Shown piece by piece: positions 44 through 61,673 of a stretch of DNA of 64,000 nt. A program made the position numbers and the translations under genes. Below the pieces are notes generated by a model. It saw only the letters and a program-made list of their open reading frames with translations. It ran no database searches and had not been told where the DNA came from. Each line of letters begins with the position of its first letter. Within the stretch, counting starts at the first letter, position 1. Origin of the DNA: Hormiphora californensis (taxonomy: Eukaryota; Animalia; Ctenophora); the NCBI GenBank assembly GCA_020137815.1, contig CM035350.1:1116001-1180000 (forward strand), given 5' to 3'.

Positions 44-3000
44 TGTTGATACAGATGGAGAACAGTCAGAGGAGATCTTTGTGAAGTGTAGTGGGGGAAC
101 TTTCAAGCCTGATATCTTCAAAGACCAGGACACCTGGTGTAAAGGTAGAGACTAGAGTACACAATACCATGTATGTTGTACAGTGTTGCTATATAGTAGG
201 GACGAATCTTAATTTTTTGACACACTATTTGGTGAAAAGCAAATTCCGGTTGTAACACACCTATTTTGACCCGCTGAACAAGATCCCGTTCATAGGTAAG
301 GTCGCAAAATTGGAGAACATGCCCAAATCGGCCACGCCCTTTTACCTGTATTTTTAGCCTGTAGCCAAAAACATAAATCCTCTTAGAATAGGAGTAGAGA
401 CAAATCTAAGGGCACTAAAGTGATCAGCGCCCTCGCATTAGTGGGGGTAGGTACCGGAATTAAGTCTCTATCTCATCTGGTTAATTAGATAATTGGATAA
501 TTATACAAATTAAAAACAACAGCAGTTTTTAAGGTCTATACACATGTTTCATGGTGCCCCACGAGGAGGCACCAATCATCAGTAGACAAAGATCAAAATG
601 AGAATGAATTGGGATAAAGTATGACTCCTTCATAAAAACAGTCAGTCGAACGTTCCTATTTAGAATTAGTAGCTCCATTTCACGTCACATCTTTGTATCT
701 TGGACCTCTAGATTCCCCAGTTTCAAAGTACGTCAACCATTTCCCTTTCTTGGAGTGTGTAATCTGTATTCCATTTTGATCATTGTTCCTCAAAACCAGA
801 CGTCGTACGTGTCCTCAGATCCACAAGAGAGCTCAACCACAAATAAATTGAGGGAGCATTGCATTATAGCGAGTTTAGTAGATTGATGACAAGATAGATA
901 TCCTGTCCCTTGGTCCGAGATCAACAGAGAGCTCTAGCACGGGGTTAGCCGGCGAGCAGTTTATACAAATTAAAAACAACAGCAGTTTTTAAGGTCTATA
1001 CACATGTTTCATGGTGCCCCACGAGGAGGCACCAATCATCAGTAGACAAAGATCAAAATGAGAATGAATTGGGATAAAGTATGACTCCTTCATAAAAACA
1101 GTCAGTCGAACGTTCCTATTTAGAATTAGTAGCTCCATTTCACGTCACATCTTTGTATCTTGGACCTCTAGATTCCCCAGTTTCAAAGTACGTCAACCAT
1201 TTCCCTTTCTTGGAGTGTGTAATCTGTATTCCATTTTGATCATTGTTCCTCAAAACCAGACGTCGTACGTGTCCTCAGATCCACAAGAGAGCTCAACCAC
1301 AAATAAATTGAGGGAGCATTGCATTATAGCGAGTTTAGTAGATTGATGACAAGATAGATATCCTGTCCCTTGGTCCGAGATCAACAGAGAGCTCTAGCAC
1401 GGGGTTAGCCGGCGAGCAGTTTATACAAATTAAAAACAACAGCAGTTTTTAAGGTCTATACACATGTTTCATGGTGCCCCACGAGGAGGCACCAATCATC
1501 AGTAGACAAAGATCAAAATGAGAATGAATTGGGATAAAGTATGACTCCTTCATAAAAACAGTCAGTCGAACGTTCCTATTTAGAATTAGTAGCTCCATTT
1601 CACGTCACATCTTTGTATCTTGGACCTCTAGATTCCCCAGTTTCAAAGTACGTCAACCATTTCCCTTTCTTGGAGTGTGTAATCTGTATTCCATTTTGAT
1701 CATTGTTCCTCAAAACCAGACGTCGTACGTGTCCTCAGATCCACAAGAGAGCTCAACCACAAATAAATTGAGGGAGCATTGCATTATAGCGAGTTTAGTA
1801 GATTGATGACAAGATAGATATCCTGTCCCTTGGTCCGAGATCAACAGAGAGCTCTATCTCCAACCGGTTAGCCGTTATTTGGCTTAAACGATGCTCAAAA
1901 TGAGCGAAAAACGGTAAAAAGCCCGATTTTGAGCATCGTTTAAGCCAAATAACGGTTAAACGGTTGGAGATACAGCTTAAAAGTCCGATGTCGACCCCCC
2001 ATAACTTGGCTATTGCCTACAAAATGGCGCCACTGAAAAGCCTCTAAACCATTCCCAAGTGGCTATAGCCATATAGCCAAAAAACGGTTATGCGCAAACC
2101 TAATTATCCAATTATCTAATTAACCAGATGAGATAGAGACTTAATTCCGGCACCTACCCCCACTAATGCGAGGGCGCTGATCACTTTAGTGCCCTCAGAT
2201 TTGTCTCTACTCCTATTCTAAGAGGATTTGTGTTTTTGTCTACAGGCTAAAAATACAGGTAAAAGGGCGTGGCCGATTTGGGCATGTTCTCCAATTTTGC
2301 GACCTTACCTATGAACGGGATCTTGTTCAGCGGGTCAAAATAGGTAGGTTACAACCGGCATTTGCTTTTCACCAAATAGTGTGTCAACCACTTCTTTTTA
2401 TAAGAGATACGTCCCTACTATATAGGTAGAGACCACCAGAAACACTTGTGATCCCATTTGTTAATCCAGCCCCGATCCCTCCACAGTGGGATGTGCTCCT
2501 ATTCCTGAGGACTACACTAACTTCTGGCAACCGACATACAATGCAAGATCTCAAGGCCTCGCTACTAAGGGTGTCCCCATCCTAGCTGATTCAGACCTGG
2601 TAAGAAAACCAAACACTATTCAGTTCTCTTGTTATGACCCAATTAGTTCTGGTTTAATGACTTCATTTTCAGAAAATAGCAGTGTTGTGTAAGGATGGAT
2701 TTGCTCAAAAGAATGGGGATGTGGGGGATAATAGTTTGTACTGTACTAACTTTGGTTGGTCTCCTGCTCTAAAGAATCTTCTCAAGTGTACTAGTGAGTT
2801 TCAAACTTGACCCTTGATCACTTGCCCCTGCTGCGTTTACCATTACATTTAACGTTCTGTGTTTGTTAATCCGGCCCTGTCGAACAATCCTCCTATAACA
2901 CGGACCCATCTCTCTCAGGTGGTTGCCGGGATATCACTGGTAACATTGAGAACGGTGCAGCTGTCTACATGAAGAATGAGGTGTTAGGAGAGGCACCCTT

Positions 3001-14133: not shown

Positions 14134-23111
<8,978 letters not shown>

Positions 23112-28915: not shown

Positions 28916-31900
28916 ATGGGAGGGGAGAAGCGACCAGTAGAAGAGGAGCTCAGTGATGAGCTGACAATAACACCCCTGGGAGCTGGCCAGGAGGTCGGCA
29001 GATCCTGTATCCTACTCCAATTCAAGGGCAAGAGAGTACTGTTAGATATTGGTATTCACCCTGGTCTATCTGGGTTAGAGGCACTACCCTTTATTGATGT
29101 TATTGATACCAGCCAAATTGGTAAGGGACCAGGCTGGGAGTTGTGTGATTAATTGATATTACCATTACTTCCATTAATTTTGTGTTGTAAGACAGCACCC
29201 CCTAACATCATTCTCTCCCCAGATCTCCTTCTGGTGTCACATTTCCATCTTGACCATTGTGGGGCACTACCCTACCTACTGGAGAAGACTAGTTTCAAGG
29301 GTCGCACCTTTATGACCCACGCTACTAAAGCCATCTACAAGTGGCTACTGGCTGATTACATCAAGGTCAGTTCCCCAGAATAATACTTGTTGAATATTGA
29401 ACTGTAATTTGTCCATAATTGTGAGTTTTAGATGTACACGTGAGTAGTGAGTACCCCAAAAAGTTGTAACAGTAATGAGTCCCCAGTAAAATTTACCATA
29501 TTAAATCTTAACTCACTAGGTCAGCAACATCACATCCCCCTCCCACTAGGTCAGCAACATCACATCCCCCTCCCACTAGGTCAGTAATATCACATCCCCC
29601 TCCCACTAGGTCAGCAACATCACATCCCCCTCCCACTAGGTCAGCAATATCACATCCCTCTCCCACTAGGTCAGCAACATCACATCCCCCTCCCACTAGG
29701 TCAGTAACATCACATCCCCCTCCCACTAGGTCAGCAACATCACATCCCCCTCCCACTAGGTCAGCAACATCACATCCCCCTCCCACTAGGTCAGCAACAT
29801 CACATCCCTCTCCCACTAGGTCAGTAATATCACATCCCCCTCCCACTAGGTCAGCAACATCACATCCCCCTCCCACTAGGTCAGCAACATCACATCCCCC
29901 TCCCACTAGGTCAGCACCCAGTGCCCCGAATTTCAGAAATCTAAAAAAATATTTTTCTATGCCTTCAGCTAGGCTGCAAGATTCTATTCGCTAGGCTGCA
30001 AATTTTTGCTCGGTCTCGGCTGCTACGCAGCCTCGACCTCGCGACGTACGTCAGCATCGTAGAAGTTGGGCTAATAGAGAAAAAAAGTACCATTTTCGGC
30101 GCAAAATCATCGTGCAGCCCAGAATAGGAAAATTTCCTCAAAATTTTCTGCAGCCGGGCTGCAAGAATTTCGACACCGAAATACATATGTATTTCACACT
30201 CTAATGAGGGGGATGGATATGTGACACCATTCTGGGACGCCCTGTTAGAGCATTGGCCTGACAGGGGACGCCTAATTAGCAAAATCATCGTGCAGCCCAG
30301 AATGGGAAAATTTCCTCGAAATTTTCTGCAGCCGGGCTGCAAGAATCTCGACACCGAAATACGTATGTATTTCATACTCTAATGAGGGGGATGGATATGT
30401 GACACCATTCTGGGACGCCTTATTAGCACTGTTAGCCAATACGGGATATATATACACAAGTGATTCGGGGAAGCTTATATTTCATATTTATATTTTCTGC
30501 AGCCCGGGCTGCAATATCAGTCGAGGTTATTTTATTTAGGCTGCAAAAAATCAGTCAGGCTGCAAATATTTGCTCAAAAAATTACACGGGTTTGCAATAT
30601 CGGGGCACTGGGGGTCAGCAACATCACATCCCCCTCCCACTAGGTCAGCAACATCACATCCCCCTCCCACTAGGTCAGCAACATCACATCCCCCTCCCAC
30701 TAGGTCAGCAACATCACATCCCCCTCCCACTAGGTCAGCAACATCACATCCCCCTCCCACTAGGTCAGCAATATCACATCCCTCTCCCACTAGGTCAGCA
30801 ACATCACATCCCCCTCCCACTAGGTCAGTAACATCACATCCCCCTCCCACTAGGTCAGCAACATCACATCCCCCTCCCACTAGGTCAGCAACATCACATC
30901 CCTCTCCCACTAGGTCAGTAACATCACATCCCCCTCCCACTAGGTCAGCAACATCACATCCCCCTCCCACTAGGTCAGCAATATCACATCCCTCTCCCAC
31001 TAGGTCAGCAATATCACATCCCCCTCCCACTAGGTCAGCAACATCACATCCCCCTCCCACTAGGTCAGTAACATCACATCCCCCTCCCACTAGGTCAGCA
31101 ACATCACATCCCCCTCCCACTAGGTCAGCAACATCACATCCCCCTCCCACTAGGTCAGCAACATCACATCTTCCCTCCCACTAGGTCAGCAACATCACAT
31201 CCCCCTCCCACTAGGTCAGCAACATCACATCCCCCTCCCACTAGGTCAGCAACATCACATCCCCCTCCCACTAGGTCAGCAACATCACATCCCCCTCCCA
31301 CTAGGTCAGCAACATCACATCCCCCTCCCACTAGGTCAGTAACATCACATCTTCCCTCCCACTAGGTCAGCAACATCACATCCCCCTCCCACTAGGTCAG
31401 CAACATCACATCCCCCTCCCACTAGGTCAGCAACATCACATCCCCCTCCCACTAGGTCAGTAATATCACATCCCCCTCCCACTAGGTCAGCAACATCACA
31501 TCCCCTCCCACTAGGTCAGTAATATCACATCCCTCTCCCACTAGGTCAGTAATATCACATCCCCCTCCCACTTTTGCAACCACATCTTCCCTCCCACTAG
31601 GTCAGTAATATCTCCACTGAGGACAGGGGTGTTCTCTATACAGACAAGGATCTGGACAACTCTCTCGATAAGATTGAAACCCTCAACTTCCACGAGGAAA
31701 AGGAGGTACTTCTGTCTGTACCATAAACAGTCATGTCAAGTACTGTCTGGTTCTATCATGCAGTTCACAGTTGTTCACATTTTAATAATTTCCCTATCAG
31801 GTTAATGGTATCAAGTTTTGGAGCTATAACGCTGGTCACGTGCTGGGGGCGGCGATGTTTATGATTGAAATCGCTGGAGTGAAGATCTTATACACAGGTA

Positions 31901-32594
31901 GATATACCAAGAGATATATAGAGATTATATTAGAGAACCAGAAGGGGTTAAAAATGATATCTTAATGAGAGGGGAGTGGTACTTTGTTTTTCTTTCTCTC
32001 AACTCCCAACCTCCTCCCAGGTGATTTCTCCCGAGAAGAGGACCGTCATCTGATGGCTGCAGAGGTTCCCAATGTCCGTCCTGACATCTGCATTATAGAG
32101 AGCACGTACGGAACCCACATCCACGAGAAACGAGAAGTGAGGGAGGCTCGGTTCACCCAATCTGTCCACGAGACCATTAAAAGGGATGGAAGATGTCTGA
32201 TTCCCGTGTTTGCCCTGGGTAGAGCCCAAGAGTTGATGTTGATTCTAGATGAGTACTGGGAGGCACATCCTGAGCTACACGATGTACCCATTTACTATGC
32301 ATCATCCCTCGCTAAGAAATGTATGGCTGTTTTCCAGACATATGTTAACGCGATGAATGAGAGGATTAGGAGGCAGATATCCATCAACAACCCTTTTGTG
32401 TTCAAACACATCAGTAATCTGAAGAATATCGACCAGTTCCAAGACATTGGTAAGTATTGTTGTATAGTGCAGCAATATACAGTCAGCACTGTGTGTGGTA
32501 CATTTCACACGCATTTACATGTAGCATGAGAATATTATGCATAAAACGATGTCCTCTATCTCTATACTTCTCTCTATATTTCTCTCTCTCTCTC

Positions 32595-32684
<90 letters not shown>

Positions 32685-34697
32685 CTCATTAAAGAATGGG
32701 TGTGTTATGTAGGCGCGATTTGAATTACAAGTCTCTCTCTAGCTTGCTCCTCCCTCTGACCAAAACAAGGTCCTACCTTCATTCATCAGTAGGCCCTAAT
32801 AACCCAACAATATTTCTACACGTTCACCTCCCCCTCCGCCGTTATATATGTGAGAGTGTCTATTTTCTTTTCCGCTCAGGAAAGATTCTCTCAGTGCCTC
32901 TCCCAGGTCCTCTCTCCCCTAATACTTACTTTCCTTCTTCCCCTGCCAGGTCCCTCAGTGGTAATGGCATCTCCAGGTATGCTCCAGAGTGGTCTCTCCC
33001 GGGAACTATTTGAAACATGGTGTCCAGACCCCCGTAACAGCGTCATCATTGCTGGGTACTGTGTCGAGGGTACCCTTGCCAAGATGATCATGTCTGAACC
33101 AGAGGAGATAGTATCTGTAACAGGACAAAGACTACCCCTGAAGTGTTCTGTGAACTACATTTCATTTAGTGCACACACTGACTACAATCAGACCAGTGAG
33201 TTCCTAATGTTGTTGAAACCAGCCCATATTATCCTGGTACACGGGGAGCAGAGTGAGATGCAGAGGCTGAGGACCGCTCTAAAGAGGGAGTATGAGGATA
33301 CACCTGATCCTGCTGAGATATTTGCACCTGCTAACAATGAGGAGATCGTGCTGAACTTCAGGGGAGAGAAAATGGCAAAGGTAGCTATGTCCTTGTTGGT
33401 AACTGTCATTGTTTTTTTCTGTTTTTTTCTCGCGTTCTTAGTGTCAGGTAGCGGAGGTAGATCCATGCACTATTTTAATTGTTTTCCTATTTACACCATG
33501 TTTAGCCAATGCTACAATTTACCTCTCCCCCACCCCTAGATTGTGGGTAGGCTGGCGGCTAAGAAGCCTAAAGCAGGAGACAAGATTAGTGGAGTGTTGG
33601 TAAAGAGAGGATTCAACTATCATATTGTCAGTCCAGACGAGTTGGAACATTACACAGACCTGAAACAGGGTGTTGTCCTACAGAAACAGGTGACACTTGG
33701 GTCTTGGGAACACTGAACAGATTGTAATGTGGTCATGTATCTGGCATTCTGTATAATATGGCAGTCTAAATTAGTTACCACCAGTTGTCAATAACAAACC
33801 ATCCCCTTCTTCCCCAGACGATCCCGTTCACTGCCCCCTTCTCCCTTCTTCATCACTGTCTCCAACAACTTGCTGGCACTGTTGAACAGAGTGAAAAGGG
33901 AAGCCGGAGTTGCCTGAAAGTGTTTGAAAGTGTGAGTTCGGGGGTATTTAGGTTGTATAAGGATGACATTGCGATCATGCCTTGAATTCTCTAGTTTTTT
34001 TGAAAAGTTACAAAAACTCGACAACTTCCGAGTTCGTTCACTATGTTTTGTTTAGGTGACTGTACAGCAAGAACACAACAAGATATCGATTGAGTGGGAA
34101 GGAAGTGAGATGGGGGACATGTATGCCGATGCTGTTCTCACATTGTGTCTCCAAATTGAGGCAAACCCCCAGGCTATAAAACAGAGCTCTCTTCGTAGTA
34201 TCACAAAGGTACAGAACCAGTTTTATAAACCTCACATTTAACAAAATTACTAGGTATCCCATCCACCACAAGTGTTCTAACTCCCCCTCCCCAACTCAGG
34301 GCCAAGACAAGAGTTCGTTTGAGGATCGAGTTGAGAAGTTGATGATAGAGCTGTATGGAGAGGATAATGTTAGCTATCAACCGAAACTAAAATACATTAC
34401 AGTCACCCTGGACAGCCACAAAGCAGTCATCAACCTCAAATCTTACACAGGTGAGACATCATAATTCTTAGCAGTCTAAGTGTACGAAGTCACCCCTATT
34501 ATTGCGTGAGCTTTCGCGGAGGGGTAATTTCATTACCAAGTGTACAACTTAGATAATAGGTAGTACATCGTTAAACTACCTTCCCCCTTCCAGTGCAATG
34601 TGCGAACGAGTCTCTACACCAGATGGTATCTTCAGCAATACGGCGACTTCACAACGCTCTTACACCCGTCAATGTTCCGATAATACCCGCCACGTGA
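28916..34697 (+). CDS. CPSF3: Cleavage and polyadenylation specificity factor 73 kDa endonuclease (MBL/beta-CASP), ~11 exons
   Basis: [78 protein letters not shown]. Confidence 0.97.
29514..31612 (+). repeat. 30-bp minisatellite (~45 units, GTCAGCAACATCACATCCCCCTCCCACTAG) filling CPSF3 intron 2
   Basis: Direct reading; two blocks (~29514-29916 and ~30613-31571) plus the real acceptor at 31600, which shares the unit sequence. Confidence 0.97.
29917..30612. mobile_element. Non-autonomous DNA transposon inserted in the 30-bp array
   Basis: TIR CCCAGTGCCCCGA / TCGGGGCACTGGG with 8-bp duplication GGTCAGCA; internal direct repeat with ~180-bp period. Confidence 0.85.
32581..32680. repeat. (CT)n microsatellite in CPSF3 intron
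   Basis: Direct reading. Confidence 0.95.
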
Positions 34698-37900: not shown

Positions 37901-40900
37901 GCCCTCCCTCACATGTCTACACAGGTACTAGCTGGGTGTGGGACCCTCATGCTGGGAGTACACTGGAGTCAATACCAGTGATCTTATTACACCAAGTTTT
38001 ACATTCTCCTCCTAGATGTGTTACGTCATCTGCTTTACCTCAATCTACTAACCCATCCCTTTATTTCAGACACTAGCTGGTGGCAGCAAGTTTATCTGCC
38101 CCTATCATGTGTGTGGGAGCTGTGAGGCGAGGAGTCAGTCTAACATTAAAACCTTTGTCCGCTGTGTCCGCTGTCCCCTTTCTTTCCACGAGAACCATAT
38201 CCCTGCTGGATGTATGAGGATATCAAAGAACCATATCCTGTGTTATAGGTAAGCAGGGCTGTCAGAAGTTAGAACATTGTCTTGTTAGTAGATGCATTGT
38301 CGATCTCTGTCATGTGAATTAGGTATTTCCTTGAATATAATGTAAAATATCTTTCTCTCCCGCATTGTACACAGCTGTGTGTGAGGGAAGGTAGCACTTT
38401 GTATGTGTTTCCGTGTGTACAGAGCAATAGGGAGAGACGGGTGAGAGAGAGAAGGGTGAGGGAGAGAGAGTTTGTGTGTTGGTGAGAGAGAGATGGGTGA
38501 GAGAGAGAGAGAGTGTGTGTGTGTGTGTGTTTGTGAGAGAGGCGGCATTCTTAGAAACATACCCGCGCTCGCTTTCCCTGCAGTTGTGTGTGCGGCCAAC
38601 TCATAGCAACACGCATCCCTTCTTTTCTTTCTCTCTCTCTATCTCTCTCTCTCTATCTCTCTCACCTTCATTCTCTCTAGTAGTATTGGTATGCGAGAAA
38701 GTCAAAGGGTATGCACATTATATGCGAGTATTCAGAGGAGTATTCTATGCCCCCAGTTATACACTAACCCCGCCCTCTTTTATCAGGCACCACAGAGGGT
38801 TCAATAGCAACACCCAACCAACCCAGGGGAGAGAAGAAAACCAGGCAAAACGAAAAAGGAAAACTAAAACCAAAACACGAAAACCTCAAGTGCACATAAA
38901 TGTATCATTTTGTTTCCAGTGTACATTTGGAGGGGAATTGTTGTGTTGTGAGTGGTGTCCAGCCGCTTACCATAATGAATGTATGCCTGAGGAAAATCGA
39001 ATGAGAGAAGGTACTAGGGAGAATATTCTTGTTTTTAGTAAACGTGGTCTAAAGTTAGGAGAAAGTACTCCAGCTTTTAGTTGACCTGTTATTTCTAATA
39101 TATTGGCACTAAACAGACTGGTAGCCTGATTTATTCTATCAAACACCTAACCACCCTCTCTCCAGGTGAAGCATCGTGGGTCTGTCCTGACTGCATTGTG
39201 GGTAAAAAGCCATTCACAGACGACGTTGTTTGGGTGAAATTTGGATCGTACAGGTAAGTGAGAGGGGTAGCGGGGGGAGCGGTGCGCGGTTTAAAATGAA
39301 ACCACACTTTTCAGCAATCTCATGTGCGCGCAGTGTCTTGTGTATTACACACACAATATAGAATGTGTACTAGAAGAAGGAGGCGCGGGATGTCTCTCTG
39401 TTATAATACACAGTGTACATTACACAGAGAGAGGCGGGGTCCGGGGAGAGAGTGTTAATACACACAATGTCTCCATCTCACTCACTCTCTATCAGGTGGT
39501 GGCCATGTCAAGTAATGGACGAGATGGATCTACCAGATAACATATTCGCCCTGCCCCACAAACCCTGCCAGTTCCCAGTACAGTGTCTGGGCTCCCAGGA
39601 CTATGCCTGGATCGATGTTAGTCGTGTCTATCTATATGAAGATGGAGATAAGGGGTCTAGTAACAGCGGATCAATACCTGGTAGCTTCAAAACTGGTAAG
39701 ATTCTCTCTCTGATATGAGTTTTTGCTCAAGTCTTAACTTTAACCTCTTGTCTAGCCATAGTTTCTGGAATAATTCACAATAGTTTAACTACCTCCTATT
39801 CTTTACTAACCCGTCTACAATTCCCATTCAGCACTAAGAGAAGCAATGGAGCTGCACGCTGAAGTGAAACCCATCAAGCAGGCCTTGTTACTGGAAACTG
39901 TTACAGCTGATAAACCTAGCTCCAGAAAACCAGCTCCCTTCAAGTTTATTAACAAAAATGTACCATACTGCTCCACTATGCGAGAATATGAGAAACAGTT
40001 AAAGCTTGAAAGGATGCCATTTCCCTGTGATTGTACAAGAGAGGAGAAGTGTTCAGCGGAGAGTAACTGTATTAACCGTGTTCTACTAACTGAGTGTCCC
40101 CCAAGTATGTAGCAGTACTGCCAAAATTACCAGAATAAACGGAACCAGTAGTTGTTGTAGATAAACTAATCAATGTCTCCCTCTACCTCTGTAGAAACAT
40201 AATAAACTAATTCATGTCTCCCTCTCTCTCTAGAAACACAATAAACTAATCCCTCCTTTCCTTTCTCCAGGCTGTCAATGGGCGGGAGAGTGTGAGAACC
40301 AGCGGTTTCAGAGGCGCTCCTATCCAGATACAAAACTAGTTAAAACAGAGGGAAGGGGTTGGGGGATGATAGCGTTGGAGGAGATTAAGGAGGGAGAGTT
40401 TGTTCATGAATATGTTGGAGAGATTATAGACGAGCAGGAGGTTGCAAGGAGGTTACAGCTATACCAGGCTACTGGAGTTACCGACTACTACATTGTGAGT
40501 ATTGTGAGAGTTGTCTTCCTAATAACATCCCTTCGTTTGCTTTGTGCGGCTGGTAGTGGAGGGGTGACAGCATCACCAACCCTGCATACATGATGATGTT
40601 TGAGTTCCTAACACACAGTTTTTGTTACAGCTGACTGTAGAAACATCACGGATTATCGATGCCAAACCGAAAGCTAACAATGCCCGCTTTATGAATCACG
40701 CCTGTGATCCGAACTGTGAAACCCAGAAATGGAACGTCTGTGGGCTAACCTGTATTGGACTGTTTGCGAAGTAAGGAAATAAATAATAGGATTTTCAGTG
40801 AAGAATCTTTAAATGTAATTTTCTTGGATTATTCTAATTTCCTGTTATTCTAACTCTTTTTCTCCCCAGGCGTACAATTGCAGTGGGCGAAGAGCTAACA

Positions 40901-45410: not shown

Positions 45411-46726
45411 AATATAATAATAATAATAATAATATCAGCATTTATATACACGCTCAGACCCCGTAGAATACTAGAAATTAAAAATCCTAGTAACACGGAG
45501 CATCAGAGCGGTTCACCTTTGCTGCAAACCCTTAAAAAATATATTAAGTTATAATGTCTATAATAATCCAGTTTAATGTCCAGTGCTCTGATGCTCAAAA
45601 ATCTGCTCACAAAACCTAGCAATTCATGTATAATCAGTCCCACAGTCCACACACACACGCCCACACACTCAAATCACCACCTCCACCACCTTGCCTCCTC
45701 TGATCCCAAAGGTCTTCCCAGGTTTCTCCTCCTTCCTCGCCCTCAGGTCAGCAACCAACTTCCTCCTCTCCTCTCTCTCCTCGGGAGAACGATCAGGGGA
45801 TATGAAAGTCTTACTGTAATCTTTAGATTTCTTCAGACTATTCTTGCAGGATAGAATTCGATCTCGGAAATGCCGGCCACTCAACCGCAGCTTTACTGGT
45901 CGGTCAGTACCCTCCTTGTACCTACCGAGGCGCTCCATACCCCAAACATCGGTAGTACACTCACCCATACAATCAAAAAGGCGTCTAACATCTATATCCA
46001 AATCGTGGTTGTTCTCACTTTTACAATCCAACAACCCATGGACAATCACGTTGCTCATCCTGTCGTCTGTTGCACTGCTAATTGCTGTGCTGATTCGCTT
46101 AGGAGCCAGGGCAGTGTCGCATTGCTTCTTGAGGACAGAAGAAAAGGTCTTAATTTCCTCTTCTGCTGTAGACTGTACTGCAGAGATCTCCTTATCTCGC
46201 TTCTCCAACAACTCGCACTGCAACTTAACAAGCTGTCCTTGGGCCTCCACCAATCCTCTCTGAGAAGCAACCAACTCCTCTTGACTATCCATTAGCCTCC
46301 TTTCACTGTCCTCAACTTCATTACTAAGACGATCAAGCAGAGGGTAACATCTCTCCATCAGGAAATGACACACTTTCTCTGTGAAATCCTCTAGTTCTGG
46401 CTTCTTTATCCCCTTGATCTTACTCTTACTGGGACACTTTAAACTATCCCACACACTACGTCCGGCAGTCAAACTTTTAGGGAAGGAATCCTTAATACCA
46501 GCATGAGTAAACAGGTCCCGTACCAGGTCAAATAGCTCACCCTGCACTTCACCATAAACTCTTCTCTGTACCCTTTCATCGCTATACACTCTCAGCCGGT
46601 CTTTGAAACTACAAGCAGAGGCTGTACTACCACTCATAGCAGGAGAGATAGATATCTCACAATTAGAGAGATTCGCAACGGTTCACAAGCAAAACAGAGA
46701 TAAGGGAGCTCTGACCAAATGTGATG
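45411..46726 (-). mobile_element. ORF1-only non-LTR retroelement (CR1/L2-type ORF1, CDS 45669-46637)
   Basis: Intact 322-aa ORF: coiled coil, then NVIVHGL, ERLGRY..RPVKL, FISPDRSPEER, IRGGKVV; short 3' UTR and (TTA)n tail; no ORF2. Confidence 0.78.
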
Positions 46727-46745
46727 TAAATATTATAACAAAATA

Positions 46746-47700
46746 CTAAAAAATGAACCCGTTGTTGCACATTTTGTTCAATGGTGGCCTTAGTCGTGTA
46801 ATGGCACGGCTCTCTCTGAGATAGGCGTCTATGGGGTCTCTACCCTTATTTATTATATCAAAATTGAAAATATTGAAGAATGCATCGTATTCCCTTCTCC
46901 CTGCTTGTCCGTATATGAGCTCCGGGTGCATCTCATTAGCTTGTTCTGCTACAGCGGAGCAGTCCACATGTCCCAATCTGGTGTGAGTCTCGTGCTCGGC
47001 GATCCGGTGTTTCAGTGGTCGGCTTGTCACACCTATGTAGGTACCGTTGTTGCATAGGTTGCACGAAGCACGGTACACTACGTTTTCCGTCGAGCATGGA
47101 ATGCCATGTTGATGCAGCTCGCATTCACAGTTTTGACTGTTTTCTTCTTTGTTGTTGTAATGGTTTTTCACCATGCTAGCAACAGTTCTTCCTGAAGATG
47201 TTACCACACGGATCGGCAGCCCAGATTCTTTAACTGCTTTCTTCACCTTTCGTAGGGCGCCCTCATTGGTGTATGGCAGTTTCATGATGTATATTTTGTT
47301 GGATTTTTCATCATCTGGTGGGGCCGGGCTTGTAGTCGGGGTGGATAACTGCTTCGCAATTTCCAAGCTAACAGTTTTTATCGGGTAGCCTGAGTTGACT
47401 AGATTTTCTCTCAGTTTTTCAAGGTGAGGGAATGCTAGGTCAACTGTGGAACACCTGTTGAGGATGCGTTTTGTTTCTGTGCGGATTATATTTAGTTTTA
47501 TAACTTCTGCACAGTGGGAGTGATAGTTGAGGTAGCTTCCACTGTGGGTGCTCTTCTGAAAGAGTTCCCACGTTAGAGATGTTTCTCCTCCGTTGTTGGT
47601 GGTTCTAACGGTCAGGTCGAGAAAAGAGATTTCTGAGACTCCTACTGCTGGTTCTGTTGCCTCTTCTCTTGTAAATTTTACTGATGACCAGATGTTTCCG
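46746..47700 (-). mobile_element. Penelope ORF, 5'-truncated: RT C-terminus/thumb plus GIY-YIG endonuclease
   Basis: ISFLDL..FQKSTHSGSYLNYHSH, then NVVYRASC..C...YIGVTSRPLKHRIAEH..E...I....P.LN. Confidence 0.92.
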
Positions 47701-47721
47701 AGTTTTTTTTTTTTTTTTTTC

Positions 47722-48305
47722 AATGAAAAATCCAACAAAATATACATCATGAAACTGCCATACACCAATGAGGGCGCCCTACGAAAGGTGAAGAAAGCAG
47801 TTAAAGAATCTGGGCTGCCGATCCGTGTGGTAACATCTTCAGGAAGAACTGTTGCTAGCATGGTGAAAAACCATTACAACAACAAAGAAGAAAACAGTCA
47901 AAACTGTGAATGCGAGCTGCATCAACATGGCATTCCATGCTCGACGGAAAACGTAGTGTACCGTGCTTCGTGCAACCTATGCAACAACGGTACCTACATA
48001 GGTGTGACAAGCCGACCACTGAAACACCGGATCGCCGAGCACGAGACTCACACCAGATTGGGACATGTGGACTGCTCCGCTGTAGCAGAACATGCTAATG
48101 AGATGCACCCGGAGCTCATATACGGACAAGCAGGGAGAAGGGAATACGATGCATTCTTCAATATTTTCAATTTTGATATAATAAATAAGGGTAGAGACCC
48201 CATAGACGCCTATCTCAGAGAGAGCCGTGCCATTACACGACTAAGGCCACCATTGAACAAAATGTGCAACAACGGGTTCATTTTTTAGTATTTTGTTATA
48301 ATATT
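47722..48305 (+). mobile_element. Inverted duplicate of the Penelope GIY-YIG region
   Basis: Near-exact reverse complement of ~46729-47312 (one Q/H change); joined through a T run at ~47703-47720. Confidence 0.92.
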
Positions 48306-49213
48306 TCATGCGTACCTAACATGTCTACCCATCCAACAACTAAATTTCAACCTGAATAGACAGGAATTCCAAGATGCCCTGTCAATCCGGTACAATTTAC
48401 CAATCGTTGGAGAGGCTAGGCCCACAAACTGTGCATGCGATGAACTGAACACCGTTGAACATGCACTATCATGCAAAAAGGGCGGATTTGTAGCTCTGAG
48501 GCACAACCGAGTTAGGGACTACATAGCAGCGGAGCTTACTCGGGTATGTGACGGTACGGAAATTGAGCCCTCTCTGCTCCCCACCTACGGAAGAGACCTC
48601 CCTGAAGGAACGATCACAGAAGATAACGCCAGATTAGATATCGCAACGAGAGGATTCTGGAATCCAATGGATAAGGCAATGTTCGATGTAAGAGCTTTTA
48701 ATGCTCAGGCCCCATCCAACTGTAACCAGACTATTCCCCTTACATATGCAAAGCATGAGACCCAGAAGAAAACAGCTTATCTTCACCGAGTCCGGGAAAT
48801 AGAAGGAGGGTTCTTCAGTCCACTGGTGATCAGCACAACTGGGGGACTTGCCAAGGAGTTTACCAAAGTGGTCAAACACATTGCAGAACTGAAGGCAAAC
48901 AGATCAGGAAACAGTCATGGCGACTGCATCAGATACATCAGACTCCGACTAAGCTTCTCGATGGTCAGAAGTGTCACCCTTTCCATCCGTGGTTTCCGTG
49001 GGAAAAAGGCTGAAGCTACATCTGACGATCTATGGAACATGAGAGTGTGTGTGTAGTCAATGAACAATTGTTTTTAATTTATTATTTTATTCCGTGATAG
49101 CGCTAGAGCGCATTTATTTTTATATCAACTGAGAACTCTCAGCATCATAGAATTTTTCAAAATCGTTGAATTTTGATTTTTTTTGTGTAAATTAATGTAA
49201 ATAAGAGTTTTTT
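48306..49213 (+). mobile_element. CRE-clade non-LTR retrotransposon 3' fragment (zinc knuckle plus restriction-like endonuclease; frame ends 49056)
   Basis: CAC..EHALSCKKGG..RHNRVRD, ARLDIATRGFW, FDVR, HETQKKTAY, FSPLVISTTGG, RLRLSF..IRG.R. Confidence 0.8.
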
Positions 49214-55470: not shown

Positions 55471-57335
55471 CCTAATCCTAAAGTAACTGGTTAACGGTTA
55501 TCACAGAAGAACATGGCATATATTCTGATATTGCAGACAGCAGACACCGAGGAAACGGAGGTAGTCACTACGACCATTGGAGCCAAATTGTGCACACTCT
55601 TGTCTGTTGTCAAGATTTTCAAAATAAGGAGTAACTAAAGAAAACACTAAACAGCGACCCTTAAAAAGCCTCCACGAGACACACAGAAAGACAGGTCACA
55701 GGAAGACACATGGAGGACTCACCACAGCACGAGAGGACTGCGACCAGTAGCAGAAGACTCACAGATATCACGCATGACGATTGAACTTAATATTGGTAAA
55801 TCTTCTAAGGTTCTACTAATGGTCACTGTCATCTCATGTTGTGGTGGGTCTCCTTTCCTCTTCGGAGTTCGGTGTGTCTCATGAACATTTTTACGAGTGG
55901 CTCTGGGATAGATATCTGTCAACGGGAAAATTTGGCCGGCACTACTGCAGTCCCCTATATCATGTGGCAGTCAGAAACGCCTGCACTGTCCACTGGTCGA
56001 CCGCAGCGCATGCCAACGAGAGATGTGTTTAAAGATTTTTTAACCTGCGAAATAAATAAAATAAAAACTTGATCTGATATAAAGTTGCGCGCGCTAATTG
56101 TGCGCGGACCTTAAAATGCAGTGTACTTTTTTTGAATTTCGCAATTTACGGAATAACGCGCGTTCAGCTCAGTTCCCGCGCTCGGGTCTGGATTCTGGAA
56201 ATTTCCAGGCGACACTGTCACTGCTGCAGCACAGTGCACACATCTGTGTTTGTTCATGATAACGGTGTAATTTGGTGGTCGCATCCATTGTTTAATATGC
56301 AATTGCATTTGCACCTGAATTTGCCAGTTACTTTTGCTTCCAGTTACCAGCTTGGTGATTCAACTTCAAACTTCCACCTTCCAGTTCCCAAGATTCGATT
56401 GACAATTACAGATTAGAGTACCTAATTACTAATTACTAATTAGTGTTAACTTTTACTTAGTTCAGACTGCTCAAAGTTCATCTATAATTCTGTTTAATTC
56501 TCCGTTTTGATTTTCAAATTCGACAGTGTTGAGTGTGCCCAAATACATTCCTCTTGAGTCTCGACTCTCGGGACGATAGGTATTTGATAGTTATTAGTTA
56601 AGCCTCAAGCCATTGTTAGCCATTATTAGTCAGGGGGACAGTAATAAAGCCCCTTTCCCTTCTAGAACATATCCAGGCAATGCTGCATATTTTACCAGTC
56701 TGCATATGCCGCCCCTCTCTCACTCAGGTAAATCAATGTGTGCTATCCCGCCTCTTCTCCAGGGACCCTTGATTCGATTTGGGGGCTCTAATTTTGTTTG
56801 TTGGGCAGTTTCCATGAGAACAATAAAATGGCCGTTAGAAATGGGTGGGGAGGGAGATGAAAATGTTTGAACAAGAGCGGGACAACGGTCACAGCTGATA
56901 TGAAAAAGAGACTGATATGTAAGGTGGGTTTGAGGGTGGTAGAGAAAAAGGTATCATGCACAGAGAAATGATCACTGATTGCTTGATATATTCAAGATGA
57001 CTTAGTATTTACTGAGAGGTGTTTACACCCAGCCTTCATGTTAGCTGTGAGACGATGGATGATTAGGTGATTATGGTGAAACTTCATGAACCATTGCACC
57101 ATTGAGTTGTGATTAAGTTATGAACGGATATTTTCGTGGATGAATTATGAACTGTGTATTAAACGTGACCATTTTACTTTTAGTTTTAGGAAAAACAAAT
57201 TAAAACAAAATGGCTAAAGAGGTTTGGTAAACTGAAATGGGTAAATTTTTACAATGGTCACTTTGTCAGAAAAATAAATGTGTGTTCGTCAAGATCTCGT
57301 TGTCATGGTGAAAAAGAGAGTTCATCAGATACTGT

Positions 57336-58830
<1,495 letters not shown>

Positions 58831-59155: not shown

Positions 59156-60002
59156 CATGCATACCAAACACAAACCGCTGCTGCTGCAGCAGGGGTTAAT
59201 GAGGGCCCACCTTCCTGCCACCTATCTGGGTAGGGGCCAATCAGAGAGCTAGTGTGCAATCACTTTGCATCAGAATGTATGCCCCCCCCCCCAGCAACCG
59301 TTACCACACACGAACAATCAGACCAGATCAGACCACCAATATTAGATCACACCAACTTCTAACAGTTTCTCTTTACCCTCTCTCTTTCTAGTCTCTCTTT
59401 CTCTCACTTCCACCTCCCTTCCACCTCCCTATTTCTGTTCTATTCGTATAGAACCACTGACAGAGTGACAGCTGGGACCAGTAGCAAATAAGAATTATAT
59501 GGAGAGGTTTAATTTTTGTAGGTAAATCCAAAGGTGAGGGAGGCATTTACATTGTTCACAGTCGCATGCTGTTACATATGAACTCACTCTCAAGAAATGA
59601 TGTAATAGAAATGATATTTTACCCGGCCACCCTGTATAGAATCTCGAATCACCTTCACAGCTCTAATTAGAACACTTTGCTTCATGTTGGGTGCTATGGA
59701 AACAGAGTCCTAGCTTAAACCCTCATCTGGAAATGCACATGGGAAATTACCCAACTAAATATATCTATGCAAGTAAGCAAATGTTTGTCAGACCAATTTA
59801 AGGAAATGTGAGTGTGTGAATTTTTCTTTACTTTGGAAGTCCTGACCTTTCGGAAATAAAAAGCAAATTAAAACAAGTTGGCTAAAGAGGTTTGGTAACT
59901 GAAATGGGTAAATTTTTACAATGGTCACTTTGTCAGAAAAATAAATGTGTGTTCGTCAAGATCTCGTTGTCATGGTGAAAAAGAGAGTTCATCAGATACT
60001 GT

Positions 60003-61475
<1,473 letters not shown>

Positions 61476-61673
61476 GGTAACGGGGTTTAAAACTTCTGCG
61501 ATGTAGCAACGAAATCGGAAGAAATGAAATTTGTCGTAGATGGCGGTGAGCGGGAGCCTTTATCCCCTCCCCAGTCTCCCTGCCGTGAGTCATGTGGGGT
61601 CACGTGACAAGCCACCCAGGTAGTCGAGATTACTCCAAGGTGTATGTACTGTTATAGTTCTCTCCTGACAGTT

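What the first reader, a model, noticed from the sequence alone, without database searches (positions are those of the whole stretch)
29366..31612. CPSF3 intron made of ~45 tandem GT...AG units: an array of candidate recursive splice sites
Seen: the 30-nt unit GTCAG(C/T)AA(C/T)ATCACATCCCCCTCCCACTAG copies the true acceptor (CCCTCCCACTAG at 31600) plus the first bases of the next exon (GTCAGTAATATC = VSNI). Each junction is a pyrimidine tract + AG followed immediately by GTCAG(T), the same sequence as the intron's real donor (AAG|GTCAGT, 29366). Splicing to an internal AG would regenerate a donor, and an unspliced unit reads [13 protein letters not shown]. Known: AG|GT ratchet points define recursive splicing. 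Inference: either the intron is removed stepwise, or dozens of decoy acceptors are bypassed or feed NMD, so copy number could tune an essential 3'-processing nuclease.
Basis: partly seen in the sequence, partly recalled or inferred. Interest (0 to 1): 0.8.

Follow-up and report, generated by a model that had tools for sequence, protein, structure and literature searches.

The report
Copied splice acceptors in comb-jelly CPSF3
The 30 bases around the start of one exon of an essential RNA-processing gene, likely from a comb jelly, have been copied about 45 times inside the intron, a known kind of exon-boundary repeat that a related species lacks and that the splicing machinery likely just skips.

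Summary
The array is real: 45 spare AG|GT junctions precede the true acceptor of CPSF3 intron 2, and read-derived contigs hold its units and its right end. It fits a known class, the 'mirage' minisatellites that copy an exon-intron boundary (amphioxus globins and Adh3; human F7, CBS). A related species has a plain 103-nt intron and no array; haplotypes of the host differ in layout; a donor-copying array sits in a neighbouring gene. The donor-like start of each unit follows from the conserved Val-Ser codons of exon 3, and only 10 of 45 units match the real donor to +6. Every decoy truncates the protein, so functional mRNA must join exon 2 to the last acceptor. Direct selection is likeliest; leakage to nearby decoys or stepwise removal is not excluded, because no RNA from an array-bearing animal could be examined. 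This scan has noted the same kind of array in other animals, one with the same AG|GT twist. Interest low.

The parts
28916..34697 (+). CPSF3 (CPSF73) gene, 11 coding exons, 693 aa, intact
   Evidence: exon model; PDB CPSF73 E 2.5e-77 for exon 5; Pfam Lactamase_B, Beta-Casp, RMMBL; 87% identical to Mnemiopsis leidyi P0002 over 691 columns
29223..29365 (+). exon 2, ends ...YIK; donor AAG|GTCAGT
29366..29519 (+). unique 5' part of intron 2 (154 nt); ends in CACTAG, the first decoy AG
   Evidence: a second version of this part in sample S1 contigs
29520..29916 (+). left sub-array: 13 units of 30 nt plus the start of a 14th
29917..30612 (.). 696-bp non-autonomous DNA-transposon-like insert: 13-nt perfect terminal inverted repeats, 8-bp target duplication (29909-29916 / 30613-30620), internal 178-bp duplication
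   Evidence: longest ATG frame 136 aa, too short for a transposase
30613..31570 (+). right sub-array: about 32 units (30 nt; two of 31 nt, one of 29 nt); each unit = about 11 nt of exon-3 start + about 19 nt of intron 3' end
31571..31600 (+). last 30 nt of the intron with the true acceptor; in sample S1 contigs this stretch is entered both from the array and directly from an intron 5' part
31601..31705 (+). exon 3 (105 nt, VSNIS...KE); its first six bases are themselves donor-like
   Evidence: second allele and organism B version

Best explanation
This is a minisatellite whose 30-nt unit copies the intron-2/exon-3 boundary of CPSF3, absent from a related species and split by a transposon-like insert, and it is likely a neutral 'mirage' repeat that the spliceosome likely bypasses by choosing the last acceptor in one step. 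Steps: (shown) unit = exon start + intron end, 45 decoy junctions, all non-productive, absent from organism B, layout differs between haplotypes of organism A. (Inferred) it began as a short tandem duplication of the junction, grew by slippage and unequal crossing-over, and exchanged sequence with working exon-3 alleles, since the exon-derived part varies only at the two wobble positions, in the states seen in organism B (C/C) and in this window's exon (T/T). (Inferred from known cases) the last acceptor wins because only it is followed by the whole 105-nt exon and its downstream donor, while decoys carry about 11 nt of exon; rare mis-spliced RNAs would carry a stop and likely be degraded. (Inferred) the donor regenerated by any splice into GTCAG is likely masked by the exon junction complex, as it must be at the true exon 2/exon 3 join, which regenerates the same donor.
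For: Organism B: contig of run X7 places exon 2 and exon 3 103 nt apart with no array (record 23); a 1697-nt contig of run X8 has a plain acceptor before exon 3. Organism A: X1 and X3 hold a second exon-3 allele preceded directly by an array unit; both exon-3 contigs of X6 (274.6 + 412.7 of 687.3 depth) are preceded by array-type acceptor sequence. 45 of 45 one-step splices to decoys and 990 of 990 unit-bounded mini-exons close the frame. Variation in the 40 exact 30-nt units is confined to positions 6, 9 and 20, and a variant run recurs imperfectly on both sides of the insert. [K/R]|VS in 102 of 120 fetched CPSF3 proteins; 5 of 10 CPSF3 exons start with GT. A second junction array in the same window copies a donor five times. 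Known class: amphioxus mirages span exon-intron boundaries, vary in copy number between haplotypes and are reported not to disturb splicing (PMC3087553, PMC3902484, passages); CBS 844ins68 uses the distal copy of a duplicated intron 7/exon 8 junction (PMC2630376, passage); EJC suppresses regenerated splice sites in fly and mammals (PMC8184009, PMC8605326, passages).
Against: No RNA from an array-bearing animal was examined, so exclusive use of the last acceptor is not shown. In two human donor-side cases (6-16 gene, CBS intron 13) two pseudo-sites are used besides the real one (PMC1557585, Introduction passage), so leakage has precedent. The other nine CPSF3 introns are 91-500 nt, which could favour pairing across short introns and so the nearest decoy. 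The array folds less than its shuffles, so structure does not hide the decoys. In sample S2 and in the second S1 allele the acceptor used looks like any other unit, leaving position as the only cue. EJC function in comb jellies was not tested.
Confidence: 0.72

Rival explanations
1. Leaky decoys: a measurable share of transcripts is spliced to one of the nearest decoy acceptors and lost to nonsense-mediated decay, so array length or layout shifts CPSF3 dose as a mild cis-regulatory polymorphism (incidental, not built for it).
For: All decoys have a pyrimidine tract and TAG like the real site, and all give stops. Pseudo-site use is reported for the 6-16 and CBS intron-13 minisatellites, and a cited title links the CBS repeat to lower enzyme activity (PMC1557585 passages and reference list). 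Layout differs between haplotypes.
Against: The array precedes exon 3 on both S2 exon-3 contigs and on at least one S1 haplotype, so it is common and tolerated in an essential gene; mirages are reported not to give aberrant mRNA.
Confidence: 0.14
2. Recursive removal: the 154-nt first segment is spliced to an internal AG, the join regenerates AAG|GTCAG, and the rest is removed in one or more further steps of two or more units.
For: 45 juxtaposed acceptor-donor sites; 10 regenerate the real donor to +6; each unit is followed 30 nt later by another donor, which formally gives the short cryptic exon that fly ratchet points need (PMC8605326 passages); short neighbouring introns.
Against: Ratchet points are conserved and lie in long introns; this array is absent from organism B and the intron is short without it. 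35 of 45 units keep C at +6. The true join regenerates the same donor and must not be re-used, or in-frame exon 3 would be lost (658-aa product). GT is forced by the Val codon.
Confidence: 0.09
3. The window's sequence is a mis-assembly: an expanded repeat.
For: Two phasings fit the S1 contigs; in one, the window is a mosaic of an array allele and an array-less allele joined at the shared last 30 nt of the intron.
Against: The array-to-acceptor junction is an exact contig in X1; unit contigs were laid in X2, X5, X6 from two samples; units carry a non-periodic variant pattern and an insert with a clean target duplication. A phase switch would change the layout, not the existence of the array.
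Confidence: 0.05

Closest known systems
'Mirage' minisatellites of amphioxus (Adh3, troponin C, globins BflGb6/BflGb9, PGBD5; PMC3087553, PMC3902484, passages read)
   Same: Tandem units spanning an exon-intron boundary; BflGb6 copies the intron 3' end plus the exon start, as here; units keep AG/GT; copy number differs between haplotypes; concerted turnover.
   Different: Here about 45 copies of a 30-nt unit (BflGb6: 3-6 copies of 150-160 nt), each acceptor abuts a donor-like hexamer, a TIR element splits the array, and the host is likely a ctenophore; splicing outcome untested here.
Human CBS 844ins68 (PMC2630376, passage read)
   Same: Duplicated intron/exon junction at an exon start; distal copy used, normal mRNA made. 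[quoted passage not shown]
   Different: One extra copy of 68 nt, against 45 of 30 nt.
Human F7 IVS7 37-bp VNTR, with 6-16, CBS intron 13, LMNB2, PDGF minisatellites (PMC1557585: abstract, Discussion, passages)
   Same: Polymorphic minisatellite reiterating a real splice site; pseudo-sites competent but mostly silent.
   Different: Donor side; the exon-adjacent (most upstream) site wins. The ankyrin-gene array in this window is the closer match to these.
Drosophila ratchet points / RS-exons (PMC8605326, PMC8184009, passages)
   Same: AG|GT juxtaposition; splicing would regenerate a donor; exon 3 itself has the form of an included RS-exon.
   Different: Those are single, conserved sites in introns of tens of kb with detected intermediates; this is an unconserved tandem array in a short intron with no RNA evidence.

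Membership tests
mirage / junction-spanning minisatellite | tandem unit spans an exon-intron boundary | tested here: met
   unit = exon-3 start + intron 3' end
mirage / junction-spanning minisatellite | units keep splice signals | tested here: met
   45 CTAG|GTCAG junctions
mirage / junction-spanning minisatellite | instability between haplotypes | tested here: met
   array end differs between S1 alleles and S2; copy number itself could not be measured from contigs
mirage / junction-spanning minisatellite | concerted turnover of units | tested here: met
   3 variable positions in 40 units; imperfect higher-order run on both sides of the insert
mirage / junction-spanning minisatellite | normal mRNA still made from the exon-adjacent site | not testable with these tools
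   no RNA of an array-bearing animal was available to lay; gene is intact
recursive-splicing ratchet point | juxtaposed acceptor and donor | tested here: met
recursive-splicing ratchet point | lies in a long intron | tested here: not met
   2.2 kb with array and insert; 103 nt in organism B
recursive-splicing ratchet point | site conserved across species | tested here: not met
   absent in 2 of 2 organism B runs laid (X7, X8)
recursive-splicing ratchet point | short cryptic exon with a downstream donor | tested here: inconclusive
   the next unit's GT 30 nt downstream would serve formally; use not shown
recursive-splicing ratchet point | splicing intermediates, saw-tooth coverage or recursive lariats | not testable with these tools
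   needs raw total or nascent RNA reads
non-autonomous TIR DNA transposon (insert) | terminal inverted repeats and target-site duplication | tested here: met
   13-nt perfect arms, 8-bp duplication
non-autonomous TIR DNA transposon (insert) | dispersed copies and a matching transposase family | not testable with these tools
   no genome held; no second copy in the window; superfamily not assigned

The most novel reading that the evidence does not exclude
A young junction repeat has turned a 0.2-kb intron of an essential gene into a true recursive-splicing substrate: the comb-jelly spliceosome enters the array at an internal AG and ratchets out through regenerated donors, with array length setting how much CPSF3 mRNA survives. 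It would show ratchet points arising de novo, by slippage, within one species and outside Bilateria.
Probability: 0.09. Interest if true: 0.65.

Novelty: new member of a known kind. Interest (0 to 1): 0.25.

Why it matters
As it stands it extends mirage minisatellites to (likely) ctenophores and offers a natural test substrate: 45 near-identical acceptors, allelic variants with and without a distinct last acceptor, and a donor-side mirror in the neighbouring gene. It could be used to ask how a short-intron animal picks a 3' splice site by position alone and whether EJC-type protection against re-splicing operates there. It is not evidence of a new regulatory device.

Tried and rejected
No whole genome is held, so no genome-wide count of junction arrays or of the insert's copies. 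Run search: no RNA holder listed. The one RNA-guessed run with the same species label (X12) gave three contigs only about 81-87% alike; they join exon 1 to exon 2 and exon 2 to exon-3-like sequence, but come from a diverged animal whose intron is unknown, so they say nothing on decoy use. 'An array-less allele exists in organism A' was my first reading (X2 record 10) and of the 585-nt X3 contig; I dropped it to 'one of two phasings', because the same contigs fit two array-bearing haplotypes if links into the high-depth repeat were pruned. Summed contig depths over units (27,848 in X2, 456,764 in X5) were not used as copy numbers. Exact unit in metagenome contigs: 0 matches. CPSF3 relatives in metagenome contigs (80 kept of 178) gave no close genomic locus; the best, L001 (81%), is intronless at this junction. 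RNA structure masking the decoys: rejected, folding is weaker than 30 shuffles in 3 of 3 stretches. Literature: 'ctenophore' + 'recursive splicing' 0 papers; 'mirage minisatellite splice exon' 2 papers, both amphioxus; 'VNTR UPF3A splice' 0; PMC10078293 and PMC8527503 passages held nothing on junction-copying arrays in the passages shown (12 of 12 and 12 of 15 places). PMC4974935 and PMC3443670 seen as search listings only. No supplements were opened; the BflGb6 alignment in PMC3087553 Additional file 4 could bear on the comparison.

Full report
Gene and organism. The finding lies in intron 2 of an intact CPSF3 (CPSF73) gene: 11 coding exons, 693 aa. Exon 5 matches human CPSF73 structures at E 2.5e-77 and exons 2, 5 and 6 carry the Lactamase_B, Beta-Casp and RMMBL families. 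Among the 120 listed homologues of exon 6 the highest identity is a Mnemiopsis leidyi protein (86%), and the spliced model is 87% identical to it over 691 columns with no gap at the exon 2/exon 3 join needed by the model, so the host is likely a ctenophore and the 29365-31601 join is the one that yields the protein. The other nine introns are 91-500 nt.

Observation. There are 46 CTAG|GTCAG junctions in 29366-31640: 45 in the intron and the true acceptor. The 9-mer is absent from the remaining 61,725 nt. Forty intervals are exactly 30 nt, two 31, one 29, one 56, and one is interrupted. A 154-nt unique segment opens the intron. Only 10 of 45 units repeat the real donor to +6; 35 have C there.

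Is it real? Contigs of public runs say yes. In run X1 a 58-nt contig equals 31545-31600 at depth 21.6, close to the depth of single exon-3 alleles (26.6 and 28.1). Unit-derived contigs were laid in X2 and X5 and X6, from two samples. The units also carry a non-periodic pattern of variants.

Is it conserved? No. In organism B one contig places exon 2 and exon 3 103 nt apart with no array (X7) and a 1697-nt contig has a plain acceptor before exon 3 (X8): 2 of 2 organism B runs laid. Within organism A the layout varies. X1 and X3 hold a second exon-3 allele (8 differences) preceded directly by an array unit, and both exon-3 contigs in X6, which make up the whole exon depth, are preceded by array-type acceptor sequence. 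In S1 the last 30 nt of the intron are entered both from the array and directly from a second version of the intron's 5' part. Two phasings fit: both haplotypes carry arrays, in different positions relative to those 30 nt; or one haplotype lacks the array and the window is a mosaic. Contigs cannot decide this.

Where does the AG|GT come from? From the protein. Exon 3 starts with Val-Ser; 102 of 120 fetched CPSF3 proteins read [K/R]|VS here (2 read K|VR, 16 did not match the pattern), and Val fixes GT. Five of the ten internal CPSF3 exon starts are GT, so a copy of an acceptor in this gene has about even odds of giving AG|GT. In the exon-derived part of the unit the only variable positions are 6 and 9, the wobble bases of Ser and Asn; the majority C/C state equals organism B's exon start (0 other letters over 18 nt) and T/T equals this window's exon, with both mixed states present (30, 5, 5, 4 of 44).

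What would splicing to a decoy give? Nothing functional: 45 of 45 single splices to decoys truncate (40 at 125 aa) and 990 of 990 unit-bounded mini-exons close the frame. The mature product is therefore the same under direct and recursive removal, and only nascent or lariat RNA can tell them apart. The true join itself regenerates AAG|GTCAGT; re-use of it would drop exon 3 in frame (658 aa), so the cell needs to leave this regenerated donor alone. In fly and mammals the exon junction complex does that (PMC8184009, 12 of 30 passages; PMC8605326, 12 of 26 passages); that it does so in ctenophores is inference. The same protection would block ratcheting from a decoy. The array is less structured than shuffles, so choice is likely by position and exon context: decoys carry about 11 nt of exon, the last site the full exon and its donor.

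It is not alone in the window. An ankyrin-repeat (tankyrase-like) gene on the minus strand has a 32-nt unit copying an exon end and donor five times, also split by an inverted-repeat element, and an intron of a SET-domain gene has two extra branch-like/pyrimidine/TAG modules before its acceptor. Three introns in three neighbouring genes point to a general tendency to duplicate junctions, not to a CPSF3-specific device; no genome-wide denominator was available.

Comparison with what is known. Tandem duplications of exon-intron boundaries are described as 'mirages' in amphioxus; BflGb6 copies an intron 3' end plus exon start, differs in copy number between haplotypes, and RT-PCR suggested normal splicing (PMC3087553, all 5 passages; PMC3902484, 1 passage). 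CBS 844ins68 is spliced at the distal copy (PMC2630376, passages). Donor-side minisatellites in F7, LMNB2 and PDGF use only the real site, while 6-16 and CBS intron 13 also use two pseudo-sites (PMC1557585, abstract, Discussion, passages), which keeps leakage open here. Ratchet points are conserved sites in long introns with detectable intermediates; two of those features were tested and not met, one is met, and the decisive one was not testable. I found no paper joining ctenophores and recursive splicing and only amphioxus papers for mirages. Earlier notes of this scan report the same class in an annelid, a chimaera, a mussel and an octopus, the last with the same acceptor-plus-donor twist; the term 'mirage' came to me through those notes and I then checked it in the papers.

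Verdict. Real, young, variable, and of a known kind. Direct use of the last acceptor 0.72; appreciable leakage to decoys 0.14; true recursive removal 0.09; mis-assembly 0.05. What stays open is the RNA test, for which this locus is a good natural substrate.

Noticed in passing
window 21892-22633 (minus strand): Ankyrin-repeat (tankyrase-like) gene: 32-nt unit spanning exon end and donor, five donor copies (first intron bases 22626, 22594, 22562, 22530, 21912), split by a 576-bp element (21934-22509) with short inverted ends and a 10-nt direct flank; a donor-side mirage like human F7.
   Followed up: partly
window 40161-40270: Intron of a SET-domain gene: 39-nt unit x2.3, each with CTAAT, pyrimidine tract and TAG, giving two decoy acceptors (40194, 40233) before the true AG (40270).
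   Followed up: partly
window 34483-34539: In CPSF3 intron 10, a 57-bp sequence made of the two ends of the element found in the ankyrin-gene intron, without its middle.
   Followed up: no
window 30206-30215 and 30384-30393: The insert carries twice a 10-mer complementary to the pyrimidine tract of every array unit; likely chance, untested.
   Followed up: no
L006, L035, L053, L061, L072, L077 at the KV motif: In these 6 of 48 loci the frame breaks at AG|GT five bases after the Lys codon, so other eukaryotes likely have this intron five bases downstream of the position seen here; possible intron sliding.
   Followed up: no
window 57300-58830 and 59960-61490 (minus strand): Two near-identical tandem alpha-tubulin-like genes, each with a short first intron (read from sequence; name recalled, not searched).
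   Followed up: no
window 46700-48310: Retroelement-like stretch with two inverted arms of about 1 kb overlap around a poly-T run near 47700 (read from sequence), resembling a Penelope-type inverted arrangement (name recalled).
   Followed up: no
window 501-1856: Three exact tandem copies of a 460-bp unit; perfect identity could be a very recent duplication or an assembly repeat.
   Followed up: no
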